DNA of 64,000 nt from Octopus vulgaris. Taxonomy: Eukaryota. The stretch spans positions 80,910,001-80,974,000 of the forward strand of contig OX597822.1 in the NCBI GenBank assembly GCA_951406725.2, written 5' to 3'. This document shows, one piece after another, positions 7,481-59,071 of this stretch. The notes beneath the pieces were generated by a model. It was not told the origin of the DNA. It saw only the letters and a list, made by a program, of their open reading frames with translations, and made no database searches. A program made the position numbers and the translations under genes. Position 1 is the first letter of the stretch, and the number at the start of each line of letters is the position of its first letter.

Positions 7481-7894
7481 ATGTATCTATTGTACGTATG
7501 TATATTTAGGAAGGAATGAATATTAATGACTGTTTTATGCTTGGCATTGATGGTCGGTGAATTCCTGGATATGTCCCCTTCAATTGAGAATAATACTATG
7601 AACGTTTTGATGACTTTTTAATTACAATTCCTGCCACCATTAGGTCTATTGATTTCTAAGATTATTCGGTGTCACCATTAATCCATAAACAATTTAGATA
7701 AGCGAATTTAGATTGTATATTTATGTGACTTTTTGACTTTGTATTTGCATCTTTAAAGCCTTCTAATTATCCTAAATATTCAAATGTTCAAATTTAAAAG
7801 CATCACTGTTCCAGCTGAAGTTGTTTATGCCAAATCAATGTTTAAAATCTTACCTGCTTAAAATTTTACGTAATGATTGTGGATTGTATATTCC

Positions 7895-8328
7895 TTTCTA
7901 CTCTAAGCACAAATCCCGAAATTTGGGGGGAGTGGGGGAGTCAATTCGATCGACCCTCTACGCAACTTGTACTTAAGTTATCGACCCCGAAAGGATGAAA
8001 GGCAAAGTTGAGCTCGGCAATATTTGAACTCAGAACATAAAGACAGACGAAATACCGGTAAGTATTTCGCCCAGCGCGTTAACGTTTCTTATATATTTCT
8101 TTATTGCCCACAAGGGGCTAACATAGAGGGGACAAACAAGGTCAGACAAAGGGATTAAGTCGATTACATCGGCCCCAGTGCGTAACTGGTACTTCATTTA
8201 TCGACCCCAAAGGATGAAAGGCAAAGTCGACCTCGGCCGAATTTGAGCTCAGAACGTAACGGCAGACGAATTTCCGCTAAATAATCCCCCACCTCGCTCG
8301 CTAACGTTTCTGCTAACTCGCCACCTTC
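7895..8328 (-). mobile_element. SINE family B (Nin/Deu-domain-like), dimeric, with 10-bp TSD
   Basis: Reverse complement of aaggtggcgag...gcctttcatcctttggggtcgataaa; gtggattgta flanks both ends (7879, 8329). Confidence 0.85.
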
Positions 8329-8624
8329 GTGGATTGTAATCTGTTATGACTGCAATGAATAAAATTCTACAGAAACATCTACCGTATATTTTAAGCACTG
8401 CATATATTTACTTTTATATATACACACCACACTAACGTCCCAACCCTGAATCGCATGGCTATAAATTGGATTTCGTACTTACGGCATCCTACCAATACTG
8501 TATGTCTCGCTTTTATGTTGCTTATTTCACCGTGAGCTTTGTTATGGTACATAGCCAATTCCGGTGTGTTACGAGTTGATGTGCCTTGGTTCTTAGGAAT
8601 TCTCTTAACAAAATATCCTACATA

Positions 8625-9003
8625 TAGGAGGTTGTGTGGTAAGTAGCTTGTTTATTAACCACATGGTTGCGTGTTCAGTCCCACTGCGTGGCACCTTGGG
8701 CATGTTTCTTCTGCTATAGTCTCGGTCCCAATAAAGCCTTGTGAGTGTATTTGGTAGCCGGAAACTGAAAGAAGCACGTCGTATATATATATGTGTGTGT
8801 GTCTATGTTAGTCTCCCCAAAATTGCGTGACAACTGATGCTGGTGTGTTTACATCCCCGTAACTTTAGCGGTTCGGTAAAAGGGTTCGGGAGAAAAAGTA
8901 CTAGGCTTGCAAAGAATACGTCCTGGGATCGATTTGTTCGACTAAATGCGATGCTCCAGCATGGCTACAGTCAAATAACTGAAACAAGTAAAAGAATAAA
9001 AGT
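8625..9003 (+). mobile_element. SINE family A
   Basis: Head/CORE/tail match to family A consensus. Confidence 0.85.
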
Positions 9004-9484
9004 ATATTGGGAAGGGACCAGTGCGGCTTCGAAGCGAAGGTGTAAAAATATGTATCAAATTTATCGCACGACATTCTCTGTATATAAAGTTAGATTTTGT
9101 TCTAAAATAAGCTTCACAAAATGTCACTTAATAGCACCAACTCCGTTGCAATAGACCTTCATCAAGACTCGTAAATGGAAATTGCCTCACAAACAGCATT
9201 ATTTGTAGAGCGAACACAAGAATGCAATCCTTGTTTACATATATATGGCCCACTGCAAACACATAGCCACGCCTGCGACTATATATATATATATATGTAT
9301 GTATATATATATATGTGTGTGTGTGTATGTGTGTGTGTGTGTGTGTGTGTTATATCTTTATGTGTACATGTATCTAGGATCATATATGAATATATATATA
9401 TATATAATTATATATATATATGCATCTATATACATACATATGATATATATATATATATATATATATGAAAATATAAATATTTAC

Positions 9485-10739: not shown

Positions 10740-11258
10740 AAGGCGGCGATCTGGTAGAAACGTTAGCACGCAGAGCGAAATGCTTAGCAGTGTGTCGTCT
10801 GTCTTTACGTTCTGAGTTCAAATTCGGGATCGATAAATTAAGTATCAGCTGCAATATAAAGGTGGCGAGCTGGCAGAAACATTAACACGCCGAGCAAAAT
10901 GCTCGGCGGTCTTTTGTCTGCCGATACGTTCTGAGTTCAAATTCCGCCGAGGTCGACTTTGCCTTTCATCCTTTCGGGGTCGATTAAATAAATACCAATT
11001 ACGCACTGGGGTCGATATAGTCGACTTAATCCGTTTGTCTGTCCTTGTTTGTCCTCTCTGTGTTTAGCCCCTTTTGGGTAGTAAAGAAATAGGTATTTCG
11101 TCTGTCGTTACGTTCTGAGTTCAAATTCCACCGAGATCGACTTCGCCTTTCATCCTTCGGGAGTCGATAAATTAAGTACCAGTTGCGTACCGGGGTCAAC
11201 TAATTGACTGTCCCCCTCCCCCCAAATCTCGGGCCTTGTACCTAGAATAGAAAAGAAT
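10740..11258 (+). mobile_element. SINE family B with duplicated head and internal repeat, 14-bp TSD
   Basis: aaggcggcgatctggtagaaacgttagc...gcctttcatcctttcggggtcga...ggccttgtacctagaatagaaaagaat; atatagcttccatt on both sides. Confidence 0.88.
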
Positions 11259-12469
11259 ATATAGCTTCCATTGTTTGTGTCTGCAACCCACACAAGATAT
11301 ATATTCCAAATCTTATCACGTTGATAATGTATTTCTTCAACTTTAAGCCGAAGTGTCAGAAATAGGATTTAAATGAGGATTTAAGTTATATTGCCTCGGT
11401 GTAGTTGTGATTAGTGTTGCTGTTGTTGCTGTAGTTGGCGATGATTATCACGTTAGTGGTTGTGATGGCGCTGATGTTTGCAATGGTGATGGTACGGTTG
11501 GTTGTGGTTGACGTTTTAGCGTTCTTGAAATAAATTGTTCTTGTTGATAAATAATGGTAGACATTAACTTTCATCCTTTCGTGATCGTTAAAATAATACC
11601 AGTTCAGAACGTAACGGCAGACGAAATACGGCTACGAATTTCGCCCAGCGTGCTAACGATTCTGCCAGCTCGCCGCCTTATAATCAAGGAATATATCGAG
11701 AATGTAGATATCGCACTAAGACAGTGTGATTTGTAAGAGCTTTAACTGATGTTCGTAGTGCATAGAGCGACCATATAGAGGTTCTCTAGTTATGTTTTTC
11801 TGTAACAGACAGTGTTAACACTGGTGGTGGCCAACATTGAAAGGTAAACGGTTGCAATAGTAGCAGTAATAGTGATAGTGCTTTGGCACTGAGAATAGTC
11901 GAATGTACTTTTATTGTAATTGTTATTATTTTTTTGCGTTGTTTTTGAGGTTGGTGCTTCTGTTATTGTCTTTACAATTGTTGTGATGTTTGTTGTAACT
12001 GCTTTATTTGTTTTCGTTGTTTTATTTTCAATTTTAGCGGTCACAATGATAATGTGTTTGATGGTAATTATGGCGATGGAGATGCTCTCAATTGATGAGA
12101 ATCTTTCCATTGAAATAGCAAGAATCAATATTATAATTGAATAATATCCAAGTAGGTGACCAATTTAGAGAGCTTTGTATACAAGTCATTCACTCTTTAT
12201 CAGGAGGAAATTCATTTATCATTACAAGTCGATAATAGAATAGATACGTAATTACAATATTAACCTTTTGACAGATACAGTCCTGGTTCACTTCATGGAA
12301 TGAACCGAAATCCACAGACTGTATTCCTTTTGCTATTAATTCCAGAGAACTGTAGGCAGACAAGTCTATCACTGACCAAATGAACACTGATTTCCCAAAT
12401 GGCGGAGATGGGTATCAATGGTTCATTTTCTGCCAATGTCCTGGGCTTGTTTTTAATGGGATAATCCGT

Positions 12470-20097: not shown

Positions 20098-20410
20098 CGT
20101 TTATCAGCTATAGCACCCTCATACATACACATTGAAACACCTACACAAAAACCACCCTCCACATACGTGTGGGGCAACGTAACTGTGTCAATCTTTGTAT
20201 CTATTTGAAATTAAATTTATTTATTTTTTTGCAACTCCTTACCAGACGACTCGTATTGACAAATAAACAATCACACTACATGGCAATTGTAATTGTCTGT
20301 TCGTATAAGCAAGTGTGTAGGCACTACCGTTAAATCGAAGTAGCGTTGTTATACAAATTGTACATTGGAATGGGAGATTTTGTTGTTGTTTTTTTTAATC
20401 CAGTAAGCAC

Positions 20411-20522
20411 AATGTCTAACGTTACGGGTGTCTAGGATGACATCAGCTTCTCGACTTTTTACGTCCTTTGTTAATCTGATATAATTATGTACAGCCAATC
20501 AATAAGAGTAGTTTTGAGAATT

Positions 20523-20571
<49 letters not shown>

Positions 20572-20766
20572 CAGATAGATAGATAGACAGGCAGGCAGGC
20601 AGACAGACAGGCAGGCAGGTAGGTAGTTAGGTAGATAGGTAGGTAGGCAGTATTTCTAAATATATATATATATATATATATATTAGAAATACTGCCTACC
20701 TACCTATCTACCTAACTACCTACCTGCCTGCCTGTCTGTCTGCCTGCCTGCCTGTCTATCTATCTG

Positions 20767-20815
<49 letters not shown>

Positions 20816-20927
20816 AATTCTCAAAACTACTCTTATTGATTGGCTGTACATAATTATATCAGATTAACAAAGGACGTAAAAAGTCGAGAAGCTGATGTCA
20901 TCCTAGACACCCGTAACGTTAGACATT
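20411..20927. repeat. ~250-bp-arm near-perfect palindrome centred on (TA)n
   Basis: aatgtctaacgttacgggtg...gcagtatttctaa (TA)n ttagaaatactgc...cacccgtaacgttagacatt. Confidence 0.95.
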
Positions 20928-20969
20928 TTGTCCGGCATGGAAACAATTCTGCCTGCTGGCCACCGTACA

Positions 20970-22448: not shown

Positions 22449-24149
22449 TTCGTAACAGTCTGGGTATTAACGGAAATGACAGTGATTGGCAAACTAAACT
22501 GACAGAATTAAAAATAATTTAACAGTTTGCCGTTTATATATAACTACACCGTTGATGAATTTGTCTGTTATTGGATATCAAAATGTCTAAAATATTTAAA
22601 TATTTTATGTAGACAAGATGATGCCTATTCCGATTATAGGTTAAGAAGGAGTGTTTTTGCTACAAGTTTTCAAGACTTTCAGCTTTACTAAGTTGACAGG
22701 TTTATTTAATAATAGATATTACAAACTAATAGAAATATGAAGATTAATATTTTCTATTTTGTTATAGCCCACATCATCGGCGTTCACAATAATAGAAAGA
22801 AGGCGATATTATTTATTCTATGTATATTATGATAAAACCGTCGTGGTTACTTAGTGTCGAAACATGGTACTCTTTAGTAATCACACCGCCATTGAAAAAT
22901 GGGTTATCTCCCCCGTTTCATGAAAAATATCAGTACTTTTGGTTATTTCCCCCAACTAAAAAAAAATTGTTTAACCCTCAATAAAAAAAATATAAAATGT
23001 AAAAATTGATAAACATGAAAACGGAAAAAAATAATAAAAACGAAACCTGAAAAGATTAAGCATCTTATTGAATTTAATAACATTTTTATAACAAATCATA
23101 CCATGCCTATTGAGGGGGACCAAACATCAACAATGTGTTGAAGTATTGAATCAAAAGGATCTAACTGCAATCTTTCGCTGTCACATAAACTCAACTTTTT
23201 AGTGAGGAGATAACCCAGTTCTTTAAAGCGCAAAAAGTACCCGAAAAACTTGCAAAGAAGCTCAGACGTTCAGGGTGTCCCTTAGAAATATCCTCATCCA
23301 TAGATAACCAAACATTGTATATATGTATACACACACATTCATATATATATATACACAAAATGAGATAAGAACGCAAAGCTTCCAGACTGTTAGGTGATAC
23401 AAGAAAGGGACGACAAAACATCCAGATAGGCGATACAAAGAAAAAAGGAGAGGTCATTCTGAGTTTTGTTTCCTCAGTCGAGTTCCAGATTATCTTTGCA
23501 ATTTCCGCTGGTTATACTCCGCATTGCTCCAAACTGGCCAGCACAAAGACATTCCAACTCTGATTTACACGTTTTATTTACATTGCAAACTGTATTCTGA
23601 CCAATCAGTGTGTGGTTTTCCTAAATTACTTAAGTTGATCAATGTTTGGTTTAGGCGTCACGGTTTGTTGAACATATCAAGAGAGCTGCATTTTGACCTT
23701 GGCCAAAGTCGTATTTGTTGGGCTATTTTTAGAAATGCTGTAAACAAAATTTCCCTGGGATTTTTACATTTCAATTATCATTATCGTCTCCTTTATTACT
23801 GTTGTCGTCCTCGTCGTCTTCGTTGTTGTTGTTGTTGCTGTTGTTGTTGGGGGGTGATGGTGGTGGTGATGGTGGTGGTGGTAGGAGTATCTGTGGTAAT
23901 AGAACTTTAAACAACAAGATAAGATATTTTTACTGACTTTTTCTCTTGATTTAGTTAGTATTTTCCTGCTATCACCATCATGACCAACTTTAGTACTGTT
24001 GTTGTTAGTGGTAGTGGTCACAGCAGTTGAAATAGTACCTCTAAGTATTAGTATTATTGTTTATTTAGCTTGTGTTGGAATTATTAATAAAGTACAATTC
24101 TCTGATTTTTCTCTTAATTTCTTTTGGACTGTAGTTTGTGGAACGGAAA

Positions 24150-26720
24150 TATTTTAAATATTTTTCGACCACATGTTGCTAGATGATTACTCAAAGGTAT
24201 CTGACGGACATCTTGGTCTCTAATTTGCTGTCAGTGCACAGCACACGTGAACCTTCTGATAGTGCATTTCCAGTCTAACCTACAAATCGTTCTTCACAAT
24301 TCCTGGCATTTGATGCAGTAAATTAAATTTCTGCTTTTGCAGTTCATATTTGCGTTCGTGAATAGTTCTCTGGTTTTGTGTTCATATATTGGCCAGTATA
24401 CATGAATTGGCTATCATTTCATTTAGATACAGTGTATGATTGTTTTTTGTTGCTAAGGTCAAATTTTACATTTTTTAATAGTTTTTTCAAGTTTTCAGAC
24501 TTGTGATTATATCTTTTAATTCGTTACTTTAAGCAATGATTGATAGGTTTGCTAGGCTGTGTTTCACTATAAATGGTATTACTTGCTCCTGTCTTCCTCT
24601 TCTTTAGGTTGTCCTCAGTTGTTGTATCGGTATTTTATAGCCCCCCCCCCCCCTGTATATAAGTAGAGACGAGTTTGTTTGAGCAAAAATTCTCTTAGTT
24701 CTGTTAGACGTCTGTTTCTGATATTTGCATCTTCTACAATGGTACAAATACTTCTTCTGGCTGGGTAGTATGGGATGTTGTGATTCGAATGTGGTGGATG
24801 GCACAACTTAAAATTCAAGTATTGATGTGCGTCTGTGTATTCGTAGTATATATCTATTGTAATGGTGGTGTCGTTTTTAATTACAATTATATCTAGGAAT
24901 GGTAATTTGTTACTACTCATCTCCTTTGTAAATTGGAGAGATGAGGATAGGTTGTTCAGGAGGATATTGAACACTTCCAGATTATTTACAGCTTCTGGCC
25001 ATATTACGAAGCGATCGTCAAAGTATCTCTTCTATGCTTTTTCAATATAATTTCTAAATTCAGTGCTATAGTTTTCCTCTACTTCTTTGTACAGTTGTTA
25101 TTCTAGATATTCCAATTCAGAGTTCGCATAGATGGGAACAAACCTCGTTCCCATCATCGTTCCTTTAATTTGGATGTAATTCTTTCCATTGATGAAAAAT
25201 GTTTTCCAGAATAAGTCTGACCCTGTCTAATATAAATGGTACTGTGAATCTGTTGGGGTCACTTCTCTATTGTTTTTCTACCCAGTATTTAATCGCTTTT
25301 TTATTCAAACATCATGTGGAATATTGGTGTAAAGGCTTACCATATCAAAACTATGTAGAAGTGAATTTGTTTCAGTTGTTTTGGGAAGATGGGACAGGAA
25401 GTCGATGTCATCCCGAATGTAAGTGGATATGTAGCTACATAGCGGTTTCAAAACAATGTCAATGAAATTGCTTAGACGGTGGGTAGAGCATGCTGGACCA
25501 ACTATAATCTATCTAAGTTTTAAGTCTTTTGGATACAGTAATTTCATGTACTCACCTTCTTGTTCTTTTACACCATGTTGAATATCTTTTGACTTATGTA
25601 TTTCGGTAGGCCGTCGAAGTTGCTGGATTTGGGTTCAAAATTGGTAATATAGTCTCTCTCATTATCGGTAAGTGAGTTGTGTTTTGAAACAAGGTTGTTG
25701 ATCTTCTTCATCATGTGGTGTTCTATATTTGTAGGAATTTCACAATAGAAGATTGTGTCCTTCGGTTGGTCCTCAACGAAATCCTTATAGTATTCTGCAT
25801 CCATAATAACAATTGCACCCCTTTTATCTGCTTCTTTAATTCTTATACTTTGATCGTTTTGTATACATTTAAGTGCATACGTCACCGATTTATTAAGGTT
25901 TGGCCTAACATTAGTATTGCGTCTAAGGGGAAATTTTTACAGGATATCAATGTATTGGTCAAGGTACTAATTTCTTCCTGTTGGTGGAGCGAAATTTGAT
26001 TTATACTTTCATTCTCATTGAATCTTATACATCAATCTCATTACTTTTATTATTGAAGAATTCTACAAGCCGTAATATTATGACAGAATTTATGGATATC
26101 CTCCTTTAGTTTGTGTTTGTTGGTGTTGGTGTTGGTGTAAATTTCCGTCCTTTTTGCAGAAGTTGGATTTCATCATTGTCAAGATCTCTTTTGGATAAAT
26201 TTATTATTTTAGGATCTATACGTTCAGTTGTTTTTGTGTATGTTTCCTCTTGCATTTTTTTCTTTCTCCAGTGTTTCATGTCCTGACGTTAAAAAATGGA
26301 TTTTTCTCTGTTTATGACTTATGTTCCTGTTGATGTTTGCCTGATGAACTTAGCGTTTTGCTTGTGCTATTTTACTTAGTTTCTTTATGTTGTCTCTTCT
26401 GTTGTTGGTATTATTTTATATATTTTTCATTTTCTTGTTAGTATTCTTTTTAACAACCACGGGGAATGATCTAGGTTTACTTCGAGACCCAAATCGGTCT
26501 CTTGCCCAGTTTCTTGTAGGTAATCTCTGTTGTGGCCTTGGCAACAACCTCCTGTTGTTTCTACTCCTCTGATCAAAGGAATATCTATCGAGGTTGTGCC
26601 TTTTGTTCATATTGTATGCATTAGGGTGTTTGTGTACGAAAAGGGAAGATTTCCTACCGTTGTTCATTTTCAACTCACTGTGAAACGAGTGTTCATAAAG
26701 GTAAAATTCAATAATCACTG
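24150..26720 (-). pseudogene. Decayed Penelope-like element ORF (reverse transcriptase + GIY-YIG endonuclease)
   Basis: Minus-strand frames give IKEADKRGAIVIMD, YIRDDIDFL..SFDMVSLYTNIPH, KGTMMGTRFVPIYAN, RYFDD, LQFTKE..LPFLDI, TDAHQYL..CHPPH and YTGQ; many stops and frameshifts. Confidence 0.9.
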
Positions 26721-26847
26721 AGTGTGACTAAGGGTGTCGAAGTACATATATGCCAGGAAATAAGAGTTGAAATACTCTTAAGGCTGTATGAAACGCGAAA
26801 ATATATGCTGAACAGGGAAGTAACCGCCCCATGACCGACTCAAGAAT

Positions 26848-26898
26848 TCTCAGACTAGAAGTCTAGTTTCACCTATTTTGGAGGCATCGTCAGTGAGG
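26848..26898 (-). ncRNA. Type I hammerhead ribozyme upstream of the PLE ORF
   Basis: Minus strand: ctca-CTGACGA-tgcct(ccaaaat)aggt-GAAA-ctag(actt)ctag-TC-tgag; canonical core and GUC site. Confidence 0.85.
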
Positions 26899-27289
26899 AC
26901 TGCTATAATTATATTTTTATTTTTATGTAGAAGTTGTAATTGTATTAATGCATGTATATTAAATAAATTGGTGTGGAGAGATAAGGTAAACATCAATTCC
27001 AATCTACAATATAATGTTCTACTTAACTATTAAATATCAAAATTTAAAAATATATTACTTATTAAAGATATATAATTCTGAATCCTAAAAATCAATTAAT
27101 ATATGGTCTGTTTTTTTTCAAAAGTTGAAATTCATTATAAATCATCATCTTTTACTAGGTTTACTTTGATTACATAATACTTACTACCCTAAAATTGGTG
27201 TTAAAACGGCTACTGCATTTATAGAAGAAGCTCGATATTAAAACTATTATTTAGTGTTGTATATATCTACACCTACATCCACTGGGTTC

Positions 27290-28564: not shown

Positions 28565-28740
28565 AGGCGTAGAAGTGGCTGTGTGGTAAGCAGCTTGCTT
28601 ACAAACCACATGAATCCGGCTACAGTCCCACTGAGTGGCTCCTTAGCCAACTGTCTTCTACTATAGCCTCGGGCCGACCAAAGCCTTGTGAGTGGATTTG
28701 GTAGACGGAAACTGAAAGAAGCTCGTCTTATGTATGTATG

Positions 28741-28809
<69 letters not shown>

Positions 28810-29050
28810 ATGTGTGTGTGTATTAGTGTGTATGTATGTGTGTGTGTGTGTGTGTATATTTGTTCCCCCAACATCGCTTGACAACCGATACTGATGTGTT
28901 TACGTTCCCGTAAATTTAGCGGTTCCGCAAAAGAGACCGATGGAATAATTACTAGGCTTACAACGAATAAGTCCTGGGGACAGTTTGCTCGACCAAAGGC
29001 GGTGCTCCAGCATGGCCACAGTGAAATTACTGAAACATGTAAAAGAGTAA
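28565..29050 (+). mobile_element. SINE family A with internal (TCTA)n
   Basis: Full head/CORE/tail match. Confidence 0.88.
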
Positions 29051-29139
29051 AGCGTATGTGTGTGTGTGTATATATATATATGTATGTATATGCATAAATT
29101 TAACAACTGAAATTTATCTGATAGATATCAATCAAATTA

Positions 29140-30193: not shown

Positions 30194-30329
30194 ATACACT
30201 GAATTATCTTAGAACAACTAAATGACGAAAATTTGTACAAAAAATTAGGAACTAAAGCAGATTAACAGACAGTGAGTAAAATTAGTAAATTGATGTGCAT
30301 ATTAAAAATTGGATTAACCCAAACATCTA

Positions 30330-30655
30330 GAGATAGAATTAAGTAACATATATCGACTCCCAGATGTCGATAAGTATTAGTGAAAAAAATCGGCAAGGGC
30401 TTCAAGGATTTCCATCCATCATTTATGAAAATTCCTAAACCATCTGATTGAAAATGATGTCCTATTATTTGAAGGCCAACATCTAGCACTCAGCGATTAA
30501 GCGATGTGTTAGACATAATTTTAATCTCTTATGCAGATCGGTTCTTTCTTTCCTCAGGGATGACATGGAATTCCTAAACAATATTCCTGAAAGAGTAGAT
30601 AAAGAGACGATCGTGGTTAGTTCCGACGAGACCAAACTCTGCAGAAATATCGTCT
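30330..30655 (+). pseudogene. Penelope-like RT fragment
   Basis: IYRLP..KIPKPSD..PII..PTSSTQRLSDVLDIIL..LRDDMEFLNNIPERVDKETIVVSSD, homologous to the 25.3-25.6 kb RT segment. Confidence 0.75.
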
Positions 30656-30849
30656 ATTGGGGATATTAAAATTGTTTTATATATACCCATATATACACAC
30701 ACACATGCATATACAGTTATACATCGTCATATTGCCGTTCACCTATCGCGTTTCACCTATCACGGTTCACCTATCGAGGTTTATTATTTAAGTCTTCGCC
30801 GATTCTTCCGTGGTGTTGTTTTGCATTTATAATATATATATATATATCT

Positions 30850-31584
30850 ATATATAAATAAATAAATATAAGAGAGTGGTCACTATATGGCTCACTCTAG
30901 CACCAGTTAATCCAAAAGGTTTCAACCACAAAAATACATGTTTCCCATGAAAGTCAGTACGATTGTTAGCTCACACGGACAGGGCAAATAAAAAATAACA
31001 AAATACAGATTATTTTGGGACAATTGTTTCGCTATTAATGAATTAAATGTAATTTTACTTACAATAAAATCCACTTGTAGCTCTTCAGCCAAAACTATCT
31101 GGATGAAATCCACTCAATCACACGCCAGATTTTACCATAACGATAAATACGCGTGTGGTTCAATTGATTACATCCGACGTTATAATTCAAATGCCCCAAC
31201 TAACAGCGCGCCAAACTTTCACGGAAAACAAATACAGCATTTAGAAATAAATGCAGCATAATTATAATTAATTAATAAGGGTGAAACAATTGTCCCAAAA
31301 TAATCTGTATTTTGTTATCTTTTATTTGCCCTGTCCGTGTGAGCTAACAATCGTACTGACTTTCATGGGAAACATGTATTTTTGTGGTTGAAACCTTTTG
31401 GATTAACTGGTGCTAGAGTGAGCCATATAGTGACCACTCTCTTATATTTATTTTGTAAAAATATTATAATATATTATAAAATATTATAATAATCCAGGTT
31501 TCTCGGAGCACTAGGCCACTTGGTGTAGAATAGATATACTATTAAATTAGTATCTAATTCTCTCACCCTTATTAATTAATTATA
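30850..31584. mobile_element. HHR-bearing element as divergent inverted pair: minus copy 31283-30850, plus partial copy 31283-31584
   Basis: ~170-bp near-perfect inverted repeat 30860-31030 / 31283-31453; flanked by (TA)n. Confidence 0.85.
31013..31094 (-). ncRNA. Type I hammerhead ribozyme with long stem II
   Basis: Minus strand: ttttgg-CTGAAGA-gcta...tagc-GAAA-caattg-TC-ccaaaa. Confidence 0.88.
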
Positions 31585-31807
31585 TATATATATACAAATT
31601 ATACAAATAATAAGAAAAAATAAACAGTACAGTACAGTTTCTATTTCGCGGATTTTCACCTTTCGCGGGTTTTTTGGGAACGTAACACGCACGACAGTCT
31701 GTCTGTCTACCTACCTGCCTGCTTGCCTGTCTGACTATCTATCAATCTAGCCATCTATCTATCTGTCTATGTATGTATGTATGTATGTATGTATGTATGT
31801 ATGTATG

Positions 31808-33220: not shown

Positions 33221-33351
33221 GGAGTAAACACATAAATGTGAAACAAGGTGGAAAAAAAGAGTACTCAAATACCAGTGGTAGAGTAATATGCTTTATTTTA
33301 AGCAGCAGAAAATTCAACAATTTTGTTGAATTTTCTGCTGCTTAAAATAAA

Positions 33352-33352
<1 letters not shown>
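33218..33352. mobile_element. Short (TA)n-embedded PLE pseudo-LTR-like fragment ending in a 30-bp hairpin
   Basis: ctttattttaagcagcagaaaattcaacaa tt ttgttgaattttctgctgcttaaaataaag (33291-33352), between (TA)n tracts. Confidence 0.6.
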
Positions 33353-33391
<39 letters not shown>

Positions 33392-35973: not shown

Positions 35974-36536
35974 AGGTGGCGAGCTGGCAGAAACGTTAGC
36001 ACACCGGGCGAAATGCTTAGCGGTATTTCGTCTGCCGAGGTCGACTTTGCCTTTCATTCTTTCGTGGTCGATTAAATAAGCACCAGTTTCGCACTGGGGT
36101 CGATATAATCGACTTAATCCGTTTGTCTGCCCTTGTTTGTTCTCTCTGTGTTTCGCCCCTTGAGGGTAGTAAAGAAATGGGTATTTCGTTTGTCTTTACG
36201 TTCTGAGTTCAAATTCCGCCGAGGTCGACTTTGCTTTTCATCCTTTCGGGGTCGATAAATTAAGTACCAGTTACGCACTGGGGTCGATATAATCGACTTA
36301 ATTCGTTTGCCTGTCCTTGTTTGTCCCCTCTATGTGTAGCCCCTTGTGGGCAGTAAAGAATTAGGTATTTCATCTGTCTTTACGTTCTGAGTTCAAATTC
36401 CGCCGAGATCATCTTTGCCTTTCATCCTTTACTTTAGGGGTTGATAATTTCAGGACCAGTTGCGTACCGGAGTCGATCTAATCGACTGGCCCCCTCCCCC
36501 AAAATTTCGGACCTTGTGCCTAGAGTAGGAAAGAAT
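35974..36536 (+). mobile_element. SINE family B with three internal units and ~16-bp TSD
   Basis: Three gccgaggtcgactttgcctttcatcc-like units; atatatttcca(c/t)atca flanks both ends. Confidence 0.88.
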
Positions 36537-37069
36537 ATATTTCCATATCATGCCCAAAGTCAGATATCAATTGCTGGAATTGTCTTCCTTATAGACTTCA
36601 GGTAGAGCAAAAATTACCTAACCAAAGCGGAAATAGCTACCATCAACCCCACCACTGCTGCCCTTCCTCCTCCACCGCCAACTACTACTATTTTCATTGA
36701 TTAAATTTACATTAGGCTTGGACGTATTTTTTATACGCAAACGAATTATTGATTTTTAACATTGACGTAAGAGGAGAGATTATGACCGGAAGATACAGTC
36801 GATAATTAGACCAAAGTACACTCCCGAGGAAGAGGAGAAGGAGTTGGATAACGATAACGAAAACAACAAAATTTTGGCAAATAGGAGGGATAACTACTTA
36901 GAAACAATTAAAGAAATATCCTGAAACAGAGTGGCCATGACAACCGCCTAAAAGTATCCCCACACGCTGTTTCTTGAGTAACAGGAACATGCTCGAAGTC
37001 CATTAATTCGTACCAAGTTGGCTACCGATAGCTTTCAACAGATTTACAGAAGTGAGGCTGTGCTCCTCT

Positions 37070-44718: not shown

Positions 44719-44792
44719 AAACACACAGACACACACGAGTATGTGTATATATATATATATATATATCAAACAATCAAGTTCCGACTTGGGCT

Positions 44793-44899
44793 ATTTCTTA
44801 CTGAGGAATCTGAGGGCCTGTGGAAGATTGGCTTGATTTAATTTAATCAGGTTAGTTTACCATTAATCGGCAGATGAAACGGTATATCGTATAAGAAAT
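44793..44899 (+). ncRNA. Type I hammerhead ribozyme (copy 1), predicted cleavage after 44891
   Basis: atttctta-CTGAGGA-atctg...(agattggcttgatt/aatcaggttagttt hairpin)...cagat-GAAA-cggtatatcg-TA-taagaaat. Confidence 0.9.
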
Positions 44900-45285
44900 T
44901 ACAGGGTAAATGTTTTTTAAATTTTCTCCTGGTTTACAGAATTAACTTTTATTTGCGGTTGAAGCTTTGGCTGTTATTTCTAGTGGGTGAATGGCCTATT
45001 ATGGCCGTTCCTTGATTGTTTGATGTTGAACTTAAAAATGGTCTATGACTATTTAATTTTTTCCTACTAGGCCGCTGGTGGCAAAAGAATTCTACAAAAT
45101 TTTTTTTGCCACCCTATATTGATTAATTATGAATTTTCTGGTTAATTCCGTAATGGAATCGACGGCTTATATTTATTTGCTGCCGATAAATTTGGCGCGA
45201 GTGCGACGATTTGAAAATTTTAGGTCAGATATAAACTTGGCAAGGTCGGAAATGCCTCGTGAAAATATCTGTTCCGACTTGGGCT

Positions 45286-45392
45286 ATTTCTTACTGAGGA
45301 ATCTGAGGGCCTGTGGAAGATTGGCTTGATTTAATTTAATCAGGTTAGTTTACCATTAATCGGCAGATGAAACGGTATATCGTATAAGAAAT
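45286..45392 (+). ncRNA. Type I hammerhead ribozyme (copy 2), predicted cleavage after 45384
   Basis: Identical to copy 1. Confidence 0.9.
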
Positions 45393-45616
45393 TACAGGGT
45401 AAATGTTTTTTAAATTTTCTCCTGGTTTACAGAATTAACTTTTATTTGCGGTTGAAGCTTTGGCTGTTATTTCTAGTGGGTGAATGGCCTATTATGGCCG
45501 TTCCTTGATTGTTTGATGTTGAACTTAAAAATGGTCTATGACTATTTAATTTTTTCCTACTAGGCCGCTGGTGGCAAAAGAATTCTACAAAATTTTTTTT
45601 GCCACCCTATATTGAT

Positions 45617-45685
<69 letters not shown>

Positions 45686-49639: not shown

Positions 49640-49992
49640 TTAGGTATTTCGTCTACCGCTACGTTTTGAGTTCAAATTCCGCCGAGGTCGACTTTGCCTT
49701 TCATCATTTCGGGGTCGATTAAATAAGTACCAGTTACGCACTGAGATCGATATAATCGACTTAATCCGTTTGTCTGTCCTTGTTTGTTCTCTCTGTGTTT
49801 AGCCCCTTGTAGGTAGTAAAGAAATAGGTATTTCGTCTGACTTTACGTTCTAAGCTCAAATTTCTCCAAGGTCGACTTTGTCGTTTATGTTTTGGATCAA
49901 TAAATTAAGTACCAGTTGCGTACTGGGATCGATCTATCCGACTGACCACCTCCCACAAAATTTCGGGCCTTGTGCCTAGAGTAGAAGAGAAT
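49640..49992 (+). mobile_element. SINE family B, dimeric body
   Basis: gttcaaattccgccgaggtcgactttgcctttcatc...gggccttgtgcctagagtagaagagaat. Confidence 0.85.
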
Positions 49993-50814
49993 ATTGTTTG
50001 AAATTTTGACACACATCACTAATGTTGACCGGAGGGGGAAAAACTGATTACATCGAACCCGGTATTGGTTTCTTACTTTAGAATGTGGACCCCGAGTGGA
50101 TAAAAGGTTAAGTGGGAACCTAGAGTCACACGAAATACCACTGTTTTGTTCGACGTGCCAGTGACTCTGTCGGCCCACCGCATCTTGCTGGTCGATAAAA
50201 TAAAGTGCTAGTCATCCGCCCGAGTATCTACGTCTACCCACGACAACCTAGGCAGCTGAAACAATTACTTAAAACACAGTGCCTGGTATTAAGCAATACT
50301 ACTTCGCGAGAAACAGCTGGCTGTATTTTACTGCAGTATATATTTTTATTATTTAATTACATTTATTTGTCTATTCAAATCTGAGCTTCTTCGATTTCAC
50401 AGTTTTTTTTTTCTTCAGCCATACAACAACTGTGGCGTATATTATTGCGATATACTATTGCCGGTCTACGAACAAAACAAGACAACGTTACTCCTACGTG
50501 TTCAACCGTTCTAAATCAATCCATAAGAGACATAATTAAAATGATATTGCTGCAACGAGAAATATCAAATGTGTCTGTGAGTGGACTCAGCTGGAATATA
50601 TTTCCTGCTCTAGAGTGCTCACCACTGAACAAATCATTGACGGAAATAGAATCTGTAGCCTAGTTTCATAGTTCAGTCGTATAATTCATGGTGCGTTTTT
50701 GTCACAACAAATGTGTTTTCATTTTATTTTCAACTTATGTTCTTCGTAGTTGTTGGATATTTTTTTCAACTATTTTGTTTGCGGCTTTGTGTGTATGTGT
50801 ATGTGTGTAAATTC

Positions 50815-52175: not shown

Positions 52176-52187
52176 CATACATATATA

Positions 52188-52358
52188 GGCGCAGGAGCGG
52201 CTGAGTGGTAAGTAGCTTGCTTACCAACCACATGGTTCCGCGTTCAGTCCCACTGCGTGGAATCTTGGGCAAGTGTCTTCTACTATAACCTCAGGCCGAC
52301 CAAAGCCTTGTGAGTGGATTTGGTAGAGGGAAACTGAAAGAAGCCTGTCGTATATATG

Positions 52359-52390
<32 letters not shown>

Positions 52391-52607
52391 CGTGTGTGTT
52401 TGTGTGTCTGTGTTTGTCCCCCTAGCATTGCTTGACAACCGATGCTGGTGTGTTTATGTCCCCATCACTTAGCGGTTCGGCAAAAGAGACCGATAGAATA
52501 AGTACTGGGCTTACAAAGAATAAGTCCCGGGGTCGAGTTGCTCGACTAAAGGCGGTGCTCCAGCATGGCCGCAGTCAACTGACTGAAACAAGTAAAAGAG
52601 TAAAAGA

Positions 52608-52608
<1 letters not shown>
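52188..52608 (+). mobile_element. SINE family A, best-preserved copy
   Basis: ggcgcaggagcggctgagtggtaag..gttcagtccc..cttgggcaagtgtctt..ggcggtgctccagcatggccgcagtcaactgactgaaacaagtaaaagag. Confidence 0.92.
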
Positions 52609-52671
<63 letters not shown>

Positions 52672-52689
52672 ATACATATATATATATAA

Positions 52690-53118
<429 letters not shown>

Positions 53119-57397: not shown

Positions 57398-57798
57398 AAG
57401 GCGGCGAGCTGGCAGAAACGTTAACACGCCGGGCGAAATGCGTAGACGTATTTCGTCTGCCGTTACGTTCTGAGTTCAAATTCCACCGAGATCGACCTTG
57501 CCTTCCATCCTTTCGGGGTCGATTAAATAACTACCAGTTACGCACTGGGGTCGATATAATCGACTTAATCTGTTTATCTATCCTTGTTTGTCTTCCCTGT
57601 GTTTAGCCCCTTGTGGGTAGTAAAGAAATAATTATTTCGTCTCTCTTTACGTTCTGAGTTCAAATTTCACCGAGGTCGACTTTGCCTTTCATCCTGTCGG
57701 GGTCGATAAATTATGTACCAGTTGCGTACAGGGGTCGTTCTAACCGACCGGTCCGCTCACCAAAAACTTCGGCCCTTGTGCCTAGAGTAAAAATGAAT
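57398..57798 (+). mobile_element. SINE family B dimer with ~14-bp TSD
   Basis: tattcct(a/g)tcctct flanks both ends. Confidence 0.88.
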
Positions 57799-59071
57799 AT
57801 TCCTGTCCTCTGCGATACTGGATATGCGGCTAATGCAGCAAAGTTGGCGCTGGTGTCAAAGCACGGCGCGTCCCAGATTAGGCATTTGCCTCCTTCGTAC
57901 AGAAGAGGGTTATTCCGTCAGGGCGCTTAACATCCCCGTGATTAAGACCTCATATGACCCTTCTAATTCATTGGCCGAATTCCTTGACAACTGCTCCACA
58001 TTTGCATATAATTATTATCTTTAGTGGCATATTTTGTGGAATCCTTATCCAATTACTTTCTGCCTGCAAAGTTTACTCATAATGTATTGGGTTCGCTCGG
58101 AGGTGCATCAGAAAATAATTGTATATGATGTCCGCGACTTTCTTAACCAAGCATCTAAACTACTAAATTCGTCCGTAATTATAAAAACACCTCCTCCAAA
58201 TCACAACTGTCTGCTTAAAAAGATGTATGGAGATATTAATTATTGTATTTGCGATTTATTTTTAAAATATCGTAGGTCTACTCGACCAGGGTTAATATGA
58301 AGCTCAACAAAAGGGAAATCAAGAATGAGACAACTGACATCACCAAAACCATATCAAACCACTTACTTTTATGCATATATTAGCTTCAAATTTTAGCACA
58401 AGGCTAGTAATCTGGGAGGAGGAGATTGGATGATTCCACTGACCCCATTCCTCAGCTGGTAGTTTTTGTATTAACCCCGAAGAGATTAAAAGCAGACTCG
58501 ACTTCAGCAACATTTGAACTCAAAACATAAATTCAGAAATGTTGCTATGCATTTTTCCCGAGGCTGTAACAATCCTGCCAACTCGCCGCCTTTTCTTCTA
58601 CAAATATTGTAGTTAGGATGTTGCACTCTAAATTGCCAGGCAGCAGTTTCAATTCCTGGAGCAAGCAATGCGTTGTGCCACTGAACTAACAGTTCATCTC
58701 ACGTTACTCTCTGACCACTTCGACAGTTGGTGTATGGTACACCGTGCACCTGTTCATGCAATGTTGATCTAATATTGAATGAATGAGTATAATGTACAGC
58801 ACATACGTTTGAACACAACGGCAATTTCAGCTCAGCTGCTCCTTATTTTTATCGACTCCGCAACTATAAATGGGAAAGTCATCATCGGTGGAATTTGACG
58901 CCAGAACGTAAAGACGGACGAAATATCACTTAGCATTTTACCCGGCGGGCTAAAGAATGTCAGCTCAACTTATACATATATACACGCTGCATACATAAAT
59001 GCATGTATACATACATACACACATACATACATGCATGCATACACACATACATACATACATACATACATACA

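What the first reader, a model, noticed from the sequence alone, without database searches (positions are those of the whole stretch)
30850..31584. Inverted, circularly permuted pair of the HHR element supports a circular/tandem template
Seen: the minus copy starts at 31283 with cacccttattaattaattat, runs through a complete HHR (31094-31013) and ends at ~30850. The plus copy starts at the ribozyme's GAAAcaattgTC (31283), repeats ~170 bp almost perfectly, and continues to end in the same cacccttattaattaattat (31564-31583) that begins the minus copy. Its distal part (actaggccacttggtg) matches actaggccgctggtgg in the 493-nt unit. Joining the two gives a ~534-nt closed unit. Inference: reverse transcription of a circular or multimeric RNA with a strand switch, like PLE inverted pseudo-LTRs. 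It is nested in a (TA)n within a pogo-like MITE.
Basis: partly seen in the sequence, partly recalled or inferred. Interest (0 to 1): 0.7.

Follow-up and report, generated by a model that had tools for sequence, protein, structure and literature searches.

The report
Retrozyme primed on both DNA strands
This is a head-to-head double copy of a 534-base non-coding repeat with a hammerhead-ribozyme motif, inserted in a TA run; it was likely pasted there by a Penelope-type reverse transcriptase priming on both DNA strands, a known kind of element whose arm ends offer a test of how such inverted insertions form.

Summary
Observation confirmed. A minus arm (31284 to 30860) with a complete type I hammerhead motif meets a plus arm (31283-31584) head to head; 171 shared bases differ at 1. 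The 534-nt closed unit is real: an independent run holds it as one closed 565-nt contig. It is a high-copy non-LTR retrozyme. A second family in the window (493 nt, 52-57% identical) has the same plan: TA run, inverted arm, direct arm, TA run. Its direct arm ends at the homologous site, and its 14-nt inverted arm ends 67 nt from a shared anchor, as here. Only the 5' ends vary. This fits the published Penelope-like element (PLE) signature (inverted truncated copy, one-sided tail, TA target), with a 100-130-nt tail instead of 30-40. Likely mechanism: a PLE reverse transcriptase primes both target strands at two fixed internal sites on a more-than-unit template, a circle somewhat more likely than a linear multimer. 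No circle, cleavage or helper is shown; no listed contig bridges this locus's own junction. Interest 0.42.

The parts
30714..30827 (+). Left half of a high-copy MITE (host element; pogo/Tigger-like label recalled)
   Evidence: depth bins 30716-30793, 78 and 89 loose ends with one terminal consensus, joints 30792 to 31586-31590 that skip the insert
30828..30859 (.). TA-rich target tract, left side
30860..31284 (-). Inverted arm: unit positions 270-534 then 1-159 (position 1 = first base after the predicted ribozyme cut); outer end at the proximal site
31012..31095 (-). Type I hammerhead motif, long helix II, palindromic helix III; predicted cut between 31019 and 31018
   Evidence: cleavage untested
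31283..31284 (.). Head-to-head junction with 2 nt exact (7 of 9 imperfect) microhomology
   Evidence: read from the printed contexts
31283..31584 (+). Direct arm: unit positions 523-534 then 1-289; outer end at the distal site (31580-31584, blurred by TATA)
31415..31440 (+). Predicted hairpin 13 nt before the proximal end site (31453); weak alone (z -1.0)
31510..31567 (+). Motif shared with the 493-nt family plus predicted hairpin (z -3.9), 13-17 nt before the distal end site
31585..31694 (+). TA run and right half of the MITE, terminal repeat lost
44765..44778 (-). Second family: 14-nt inverted arm, reverse complement of 45011-45024, next to a TA run
   Evidence: expected by chance 1e-5; longest match among 200 TA-run flanks
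44778..45620 (+). Second family: direct arm of 1.7 units of 493 nt with two hammerhead motifs (cuts after 44891 and 45384), ending at the homologous distal site in a TA run
24050..27260 (-). Decayed PLE with RT and C-terminal GIY-YIG; candidate class of helper only, not shown to be the helper

Best explanation
The locus is one insertion of a high-copy, non-coding 534-nt hammerhead repeat (a non-LTR retrozyme), likely made by a Penelope-like reverse transcriptase that nicked both strands of a TA tract and primed each at a different fixed internal site of a more-than-unit RNA, most likely a re-ligated circle. Shown: anatomy, closed unit, high copy, homologous arm ends in two families, variable 5' junctions. 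Inferred steps: (1) tandem copies are transcribed, cut by the ribozyme in its dimeric fold and circularised; (2) a PLE protein binds in trans at two hairpins, 130 nt apart here and about 103 nt apart in the second family; (3) one nick primes at the distal site (unit 289) to give the direct arm, the other at the proximal site (unit 159) to give the inverted arm; (4) both cDNAs run across the ribozyme cut site, the inverted one stopping about 20 nt past the start of the other; (5) the two cDNA ends are joined by microhomology, leaving a head-to-head insert with a tail on one side only.
For: Closed unit: run X14 gives one 565-nt contig whose ends overlap by 30 nt, a 535-nt cycle, with 4 other letters over its three pieces; run X10 (RNA is only a guess) has a 236-nt contig across the closure. 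High copy: 3928 and 2646 contigs laid in X1 and X3. More-than-unit template: the arms need at least 554 nt of tandem sequence; the second family has 1.7 units, its repeated part identical over the first 347 nt, the one difference in 350 lying at the TA junction. Fixed ends: the inverted arms end 67 and 67 nt after a shared GGTTGAA anchor; the direct arms end 11-17 nt after the homologous hairpin; 4 of 4 ends lie 11-17 nt after a hairpin, where 13-23% of unit positions do at the strictest threshold and 32-42% at the loosest (window chosen after seeing the ends). Other copies: 6 listed joints go antisense to sense, the 5 with a listed depth beside flank-like depth (42-64), with different breakpoints; of 5 usable ones, 3 start the direct arm within 22 nt of the proximal site (units 148, 156, 181), as twin priming on one RNA predicts. 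Literature: inverted 5'-truncated copy, one-sided tail and (TA)n bias in PLEs (PMC8557442, passages); PLE protein cuts and extends both strands and starts internally at two sites that bound the tail (PMC11167929, parts 1-2 of 4); short palindromic helix III favours dimer cleavage and spares monomer circles (PMC4209133, passages); retrozyme circles detected in coral, mussel and axolotl (PMC7229834, passages and Discussion). A decayed PLE lies in the same window.
Against: No RNA circle, cleavage or helper protein is shown. A closed contig also arises from tandem DNA copies. No listed piece bridges the junction at 31283. The two-site rule rests on 2 complete loci; MAFFT places the proximal ends 12 columns apart by a gap just before the end, although the ungapped distance is equal. 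The other-copy joints have short sides (21-31 nt), mostly unknown letters between, and 17 joints were not shown. The units show no significant likeness to the window's PLE pseudo-LTR (z -2.0 to 1.3). On one circle the distal cDNA would have to displace 171 nt of the proximal one. In vitro the anole PLE prefers uncleaved linear RNA (PMC11167929). The tail is 100-130 nt, not 30-40.
Confidence: 0.55

Rival explanations
1. Same element, same two priming sites, but the template is linear: an uncleaved read-through transcript of a tandem array, or two RNA molecules held by a dimeric PLE protein.
For: Unprocessed RNA is the main substrate of the anole PLE in vitro and the protein is predicted to be a dimer (PMC11167929). 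A palindromic helix III cuts poorly as a monomer (PMC4209133). Two RNAs remove the need for 171 nt of displacement. The closed contig fits tandem DNA.
Against: Tandem ribozymes of this type should cut in the dimeric fold, yet the arms cross intact cut sites four times in two loci. The inverted arm stops about 20 nt past the other arm's start, as a collision on one circle would give (but a hairpin lies there too). Repeated segments are 170/171 and 347/347 identical while family contigs vary widely.
Confidence: 0.3
2. One priming event followed by self-priming or a template switch (fold-back of the nascent cDNA, or an antisense template) made the inversion, or it arose later at DNA level in a tandem array.
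For: Self-priming on an antisense template was proposed for head-to-head PLE repeats (PMC3846280, passages). The junction has 7 of 9 complementarity. The window holds other palindromes at TA runs.
Against: Fold-back on the cDNA would copy the target flank after the 20-mer, but the arm continues into unit sequence. It does not predict the same outer end of the inverted arm in two families.
Confidence: 0.08
3. Two independent insertions of the same family landed back to back in one TA tract.
For: The family is high-copy and targets TA runs.
Against: No TA bases lie between the arms; they join by microhomology and are 170/171 identical; they end at two different sites, and the second family repeats the plan.
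Confidence: 0.04
4. Assembly or library artefact (fold-back read or mis-join of repeat copies).
For: No listed contig bridges 31283; no run holds all sampled words (best 0.84).
Against: The flanks are the two halves of one MITE in correct order, not mirrored; the arms differ at one base; other runs show the same kind of junction at other breakpoints.
Confidence: 0.03

Closest known systems
Non-LTR retrozymes of animals (Cervera and de la Pena 2020, PMC7229834; Li, Clavereau and Pollet 2026, 10.64898/2026.07.22.740005)
   Same: Non-coding tandem unit, one type I hammerhead per unit, GC 32-36%, highly self-paired predicted fold, unit length inside the reported 51-972 bp, many copies.
   Different: Inverted head-to-head copies with two fixed ends are not described in the main-text parts I saw ('inverted' occurs 0 times in the first and once, in a reference, in the second; supplements not seen). 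Helix II is long (51 and 68 nt). No Rfam hit.
Endonuclease-bearing Penelope-like elements, inverted pseudo-LTR plus tail (Craig et al. 2021, PMC8557442; Arkhipova et al. 2013, PMC3846280; Frangieh et al. 2024, PMC11167929)
   Same: Inverted 5'-truncated copy next to a direct copy, head to head, tail on one side, (TA)n target, internal start sites near stem-loops downstream of the ribozyme.
   Different: No ORF (longest stop-free frame 89 codons); tail 100-130 nt rather than 30-40; no sequence likeness shown to a PLE pseudo-LTR.
LINE-1 twin priming
   Same: Head-to-head inversion, microhomology at the junction, second primer from the other target strand.
   Different: No poly(A); both primers start internally at apparently fixed sites; a 171-nt overlap and 22-nt terminal redundancy need a more-than-unit template.

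Membership tests
Non-LTR retrozyme | Type I hammerhead with conserved core in each unit | tested here: met
   core, helices I-III; 0 hits in 20 shuffles. Rfam models miss it.
Non-LTR retrozyme | Head-to-tail tandem unit of a few hundred bases | tested here: met
   closed 535-nt contig and loose ends running on at 31584; second family 1.7 units
Non-LTR retrozyme | Non-coding, low GC | tested here: met
   GC 0.32 and 0.36; longest stop-free frames 54-89 codons in trimers
Non-LTR retrozyme | Dispersed multicopy | tested here: met
   thousands of contigs laid, many at 90-99% identity; summed depth is not a copy number
Non-LTR retrozyme | Transcribed | tested here: inconclusive
   X10 holds the unit and its closure, but its RNA status is a guess
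Non-LTR retrozyme | Self-cleaves and accumulates as circular RNA | not testable with these tools
   only assembled contigs were served; needs bench work or raw reads
Autonomous Penelope-like element | ORF with RT and GIY-YIG endonuclease | tested here: not met
   no such ORF in the unit; not filed as an autonomous PLE
PLE-mobilised insertion | Inverted 5'-truncated copy adjacent to the direct copy, head to head | tested here: met
   other copies
PLE-mobilised insertion | One-sided tail of 30-40 nt | tested here: inconclusive
   one-sided extension present, but 130 and about 103 nt long
PLE-mobilised insertion | (TA)n target | tested here: met
   TA runs on both sides of both loci; MITE copies lacking the insert
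PLE-mobilised insertion | Sequence shared with the pseudo-LTR of an autonomous partner | tested here: inconclusive
   no significant likeness to the one decayed PLE in the window; no genome was held to look for others
pogo/Tigger MITE (host) | Paired terminal inverted repeats with TA duplication | tested here: inconclusive
   left end degenerate, right end lost; family left-end consensus from loose ends; label recalled

The most novel reading that the evidence does not exclude
These retrozymes carry two conserved hairpin landing sites for a dimeric Penelope-type reverse transcriptase, and both target strands are primed on one RNA circle, the two polymerases chasing each other round it. That would explain PLE inverted repeats, the one-sided tail and more-than-unit copies with one mechanism, and thousands of young genomic copies would record it.
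Probability: 0.3. Interest if true: 0.7.

Novelty: new member of a known kind. Interest (0 to 1): 0.42.

Why it matters
How PLEs make their tandem and inverted structures is stated as unresolved (PMC8557442), and PLE mobilisation of animal retrozymes rests on co-occurrence and phylogeny (PMC7229834; 10.64898/2026.07.22.740005). A protein-free retrozyme carrying the PLE integration signature, with the same two end sites in families only 52-57% alike, would be direct genomic evidence for trans-mobilisation and would name the RNA elements to mutate in an existing in vitro system. The element class and the inverted architecture are each already known, which limits the surprise.

Tried and rejected
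No whole genome is held, so copy ends could not be mapped genome-wide and the orthologous empty site was not tested; only paralogous MITE copies without the insert were seen. Rfam: 0 hits at gathering score over the window; at E up to 5 only chance-level hairpin families, no hammerhead. Exact patterns found 0 loci in metagenome contigs and 0 in viral contigs. No RNA holder is on record; this is no evidence on expression. 4 of 24 listed runs were laid, all as contigs, so RNA ends, strand and circles cannot be read. The first TA-flank control (0 of 204) missed its own positive through a phase error and was redone. One joint (31057 to 31581) was dropped before the 3-of-5 count because 34 unplaced letters lie between and only 3 nt of the unit are on its right side. 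The window's PLE pseudo-LTR is not alignable to the units; a CACCCT match about 115 nt after its ribozyme is a post-hoc weak lead only. A profile from the two units found no third family member in the window (best other E 0.06). Pfam gave 0 families for 7 ORFs and only a sub-threshold RT hit for 1 of 4 read-through frames. Earlier findings: nothing by sequence or in this genome. Literature searches listed no paper on cephalopod retrozymes, on twin priming in PLEs or on inverted retrozyme insertions; the library omits most subscription journals and I saw no supplements. Random permutation as proof of a circle was rejected because outer ends are fixed.

Full report
Setting. The window is an AT-rich, microsatellite-dense eukaryotic sequence. 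I take it for an animal, probably an octopus, from recalled repeat content; this was not tested. No whole genome is held.

Observation. The region 30860-31584 is two arms joined head to head. The minus arm runs from 31284 to 30860 and the plus arm from 31283 to 31584. They share 171 bases with 1 difference. The 20-mer that opens the minus arm closes the plus arm. The minus arm holds a type I hammerhead motif. A descriptor scan finds it and the two motifs at 44801 and 45294, and nothing in 20 shuffled windows. The catalytic fold is within 1.3 and 1.7 kcal/mol of the minimum for the two families. Rfam models miss all three. Helix III is short and self-complementary, the form described as working in dimers (PMC4209133, passages). 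The arms add up to 534 nt. The 493-nt unit is a distant relative: 57% or 52% identity by two aligners, global z 6.0, marginal under strict scoring.

Independent data. Twenty of 24 listed runs, from 10 studies, hold part of the stretch; none is on record as RNA. I laid four, all contigs. X14 has a single 565-nt contig whose ends overlap by 30 nt, which is a closed 535-nt cycle, with 4 other letters. X10, guessed to be RNA, has a 236-nt contig across the closure. In X1 and X3, 6 and 4 contigs run on past 31584 into the unit. So the closed unit is real, as tandem DNA at least. X1 and X3 laid 3928 and 2646 contigs, many at 90-99% identity, so the family is large. Nine of the 15 listed joints join the left and right MITE halves without the insert, four of them landing at 31586-31590, so the insert sits in a short AT tract of a common MITE. 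X1 holds the unique left flank without differences. No listed piece bridges the junction at 31283; 6720 pieces and 17 joints were not shown.

Ends are fixed, junctions vary. Counting from the predicted cut, the direct arm ends at unit 286-290 and the inverted arm at 159. The second family has the same plan. Its direct arm, 1.7 units long, ends at the homologous site after a shared motif and hairpin. Its left end carries a 14-nt inverted piece that the finding did not mention; this is expected 1e-5 times by chance and is the longest match among 200 TA-run flanks. That piece ends 67 nt after a shared GGTTGAA anchor, the same distance as in the 534-nt family, though MAFFT sets the two ends 12 columns apart. 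All four ends lie 11-17 nt after a predicted hairpin; 13-42% of unit positions do so depending on family and threshold, and I chose the window after seeing the ends. Three contigs of other copies also pass from the distal site into TA (X1 record 8; X3 joints 31003-31574 and 31598-31518). Six listed joints go from antisense to sense at other breakpoints. I dropped one; in the other five the direct arm starts at units 148, 156, 181, 247 and 280. Their sides are short (21-31 nt where listed), so they are suggestive only. They show that head-to-head inversion is a habit of the family and make an assembly artefact unlikely.

Template. The two arms need at least 554 nt of tandem sequence and both cross the cut site, one by 12 nt and one by 265 nt. 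The second family crosses it twice, with 347 identical bases between passes. A cleaved linear monomer cannot give this without a jump. A circle or an uncleaved multimer can. For the circle: tandem ribozymes of this type should cut as dimers, and the inverted arm stops about 20 nt after reaching the start of the direct arm. For the multimer: the anole PLE prefers unprocessed RNA in vitro (PMC11167929), and a single circle needs 171 nt of strand displacement. I put the circle somewhat ahead.

Mechanism. Shown: anatomy, closed unit, high copy, matching ends. From the literature: PLE insertions often carry an inverted 5'-truncated copy and a 30-40 nt tail on one side and favour (TA)n (PMC8557442, passages; PMC3846280, passages); a purified PLE protein cuts and extends both strands, starting inside the RNA at two sites that bound the tail (PMC11167929, parts 1-2 of 4); animal retrozymes give circles and PLEs are the proposed helpers (PMC7229834, passages and Discussion; 10.64898/2026.07.22.740005, parts 1-2 of 5 and passages). 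Inferred: a PLE protein acting in trans primed one target strand at the distal site and the other at the proximal site, and the cDNA ends were joined through 2 nt of exact (7 of 9) microhomology. The stretch between the sites, 130 or about 103 nt, is the tail. [quoted passage not shown] Its pseudo-LTR does not align to the units, so it shows only that such helpers have been active here.

Comparison and verdict. It meets the sequence-level tests of a non-LTR retrozyme; cleavage and circles are untested. It is not an autonomous PLE. It works like a PLE insertion. The inverted architecture is known for PLEs; I did not find it described for retrozymes in the texts I saw or in six searches, with supplements unseen. 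An earlier scan note on a tRNA-bearing repeat in TA runs in another genome describes a similar pattern; I did not check it and do not count it as support. New member of a known kind, with one useful and testable detail, the two conserved end sites. Interest 0.42.

Noticed in passing
window 44765-45620: Second retrozyme family (493 nt, 1.7 units, two hammerhead motifs) with its own 14-nt inverted arm at the left end, in a TA run.
   Followed up: yes
window about 24050-27260, minus strand: Decayed near-full-length PLE (RT, C-terminal GIY-YIG, many stops and frameshifts) with a degenerate hammerhead-like motif at 26873 upstream of its ORF.
   Followed up: partly
window 30209-30657, plus strand: Older PLE RT fragment just left of the MITE (tblastn E 2.9e-8 with P0001).
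   Followed up: no
window 20408-20930: A 523-nt near-perfect palindrome centred on a TA run, including mirrored microsatellites (258 of 264 columns match); real fold-back duplication or assembly artefact.
   Followed up: no
window 33286-33357 and 52760-52931: Short inverted arms directly beside TA runs; the second lies in a 250-nt stretch between two TA runs and may be another head-to-head insertion. No hammerhead motif found there.
   Followed up: no
window 7887-8340, 10859-11271, 35974-36546, 49643-49995, 57398-57801: Dispersed repeat built of about 184-nt partial tandems, 74-87% identical between copies; SINE-like by recall.
   Followed up: no
window 8630-9007, 28566-29051, 52182-52622 and others: A second dispersed repeat family interrupted by microsatellites, 77-87% identical between copies.
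   Followed up: no
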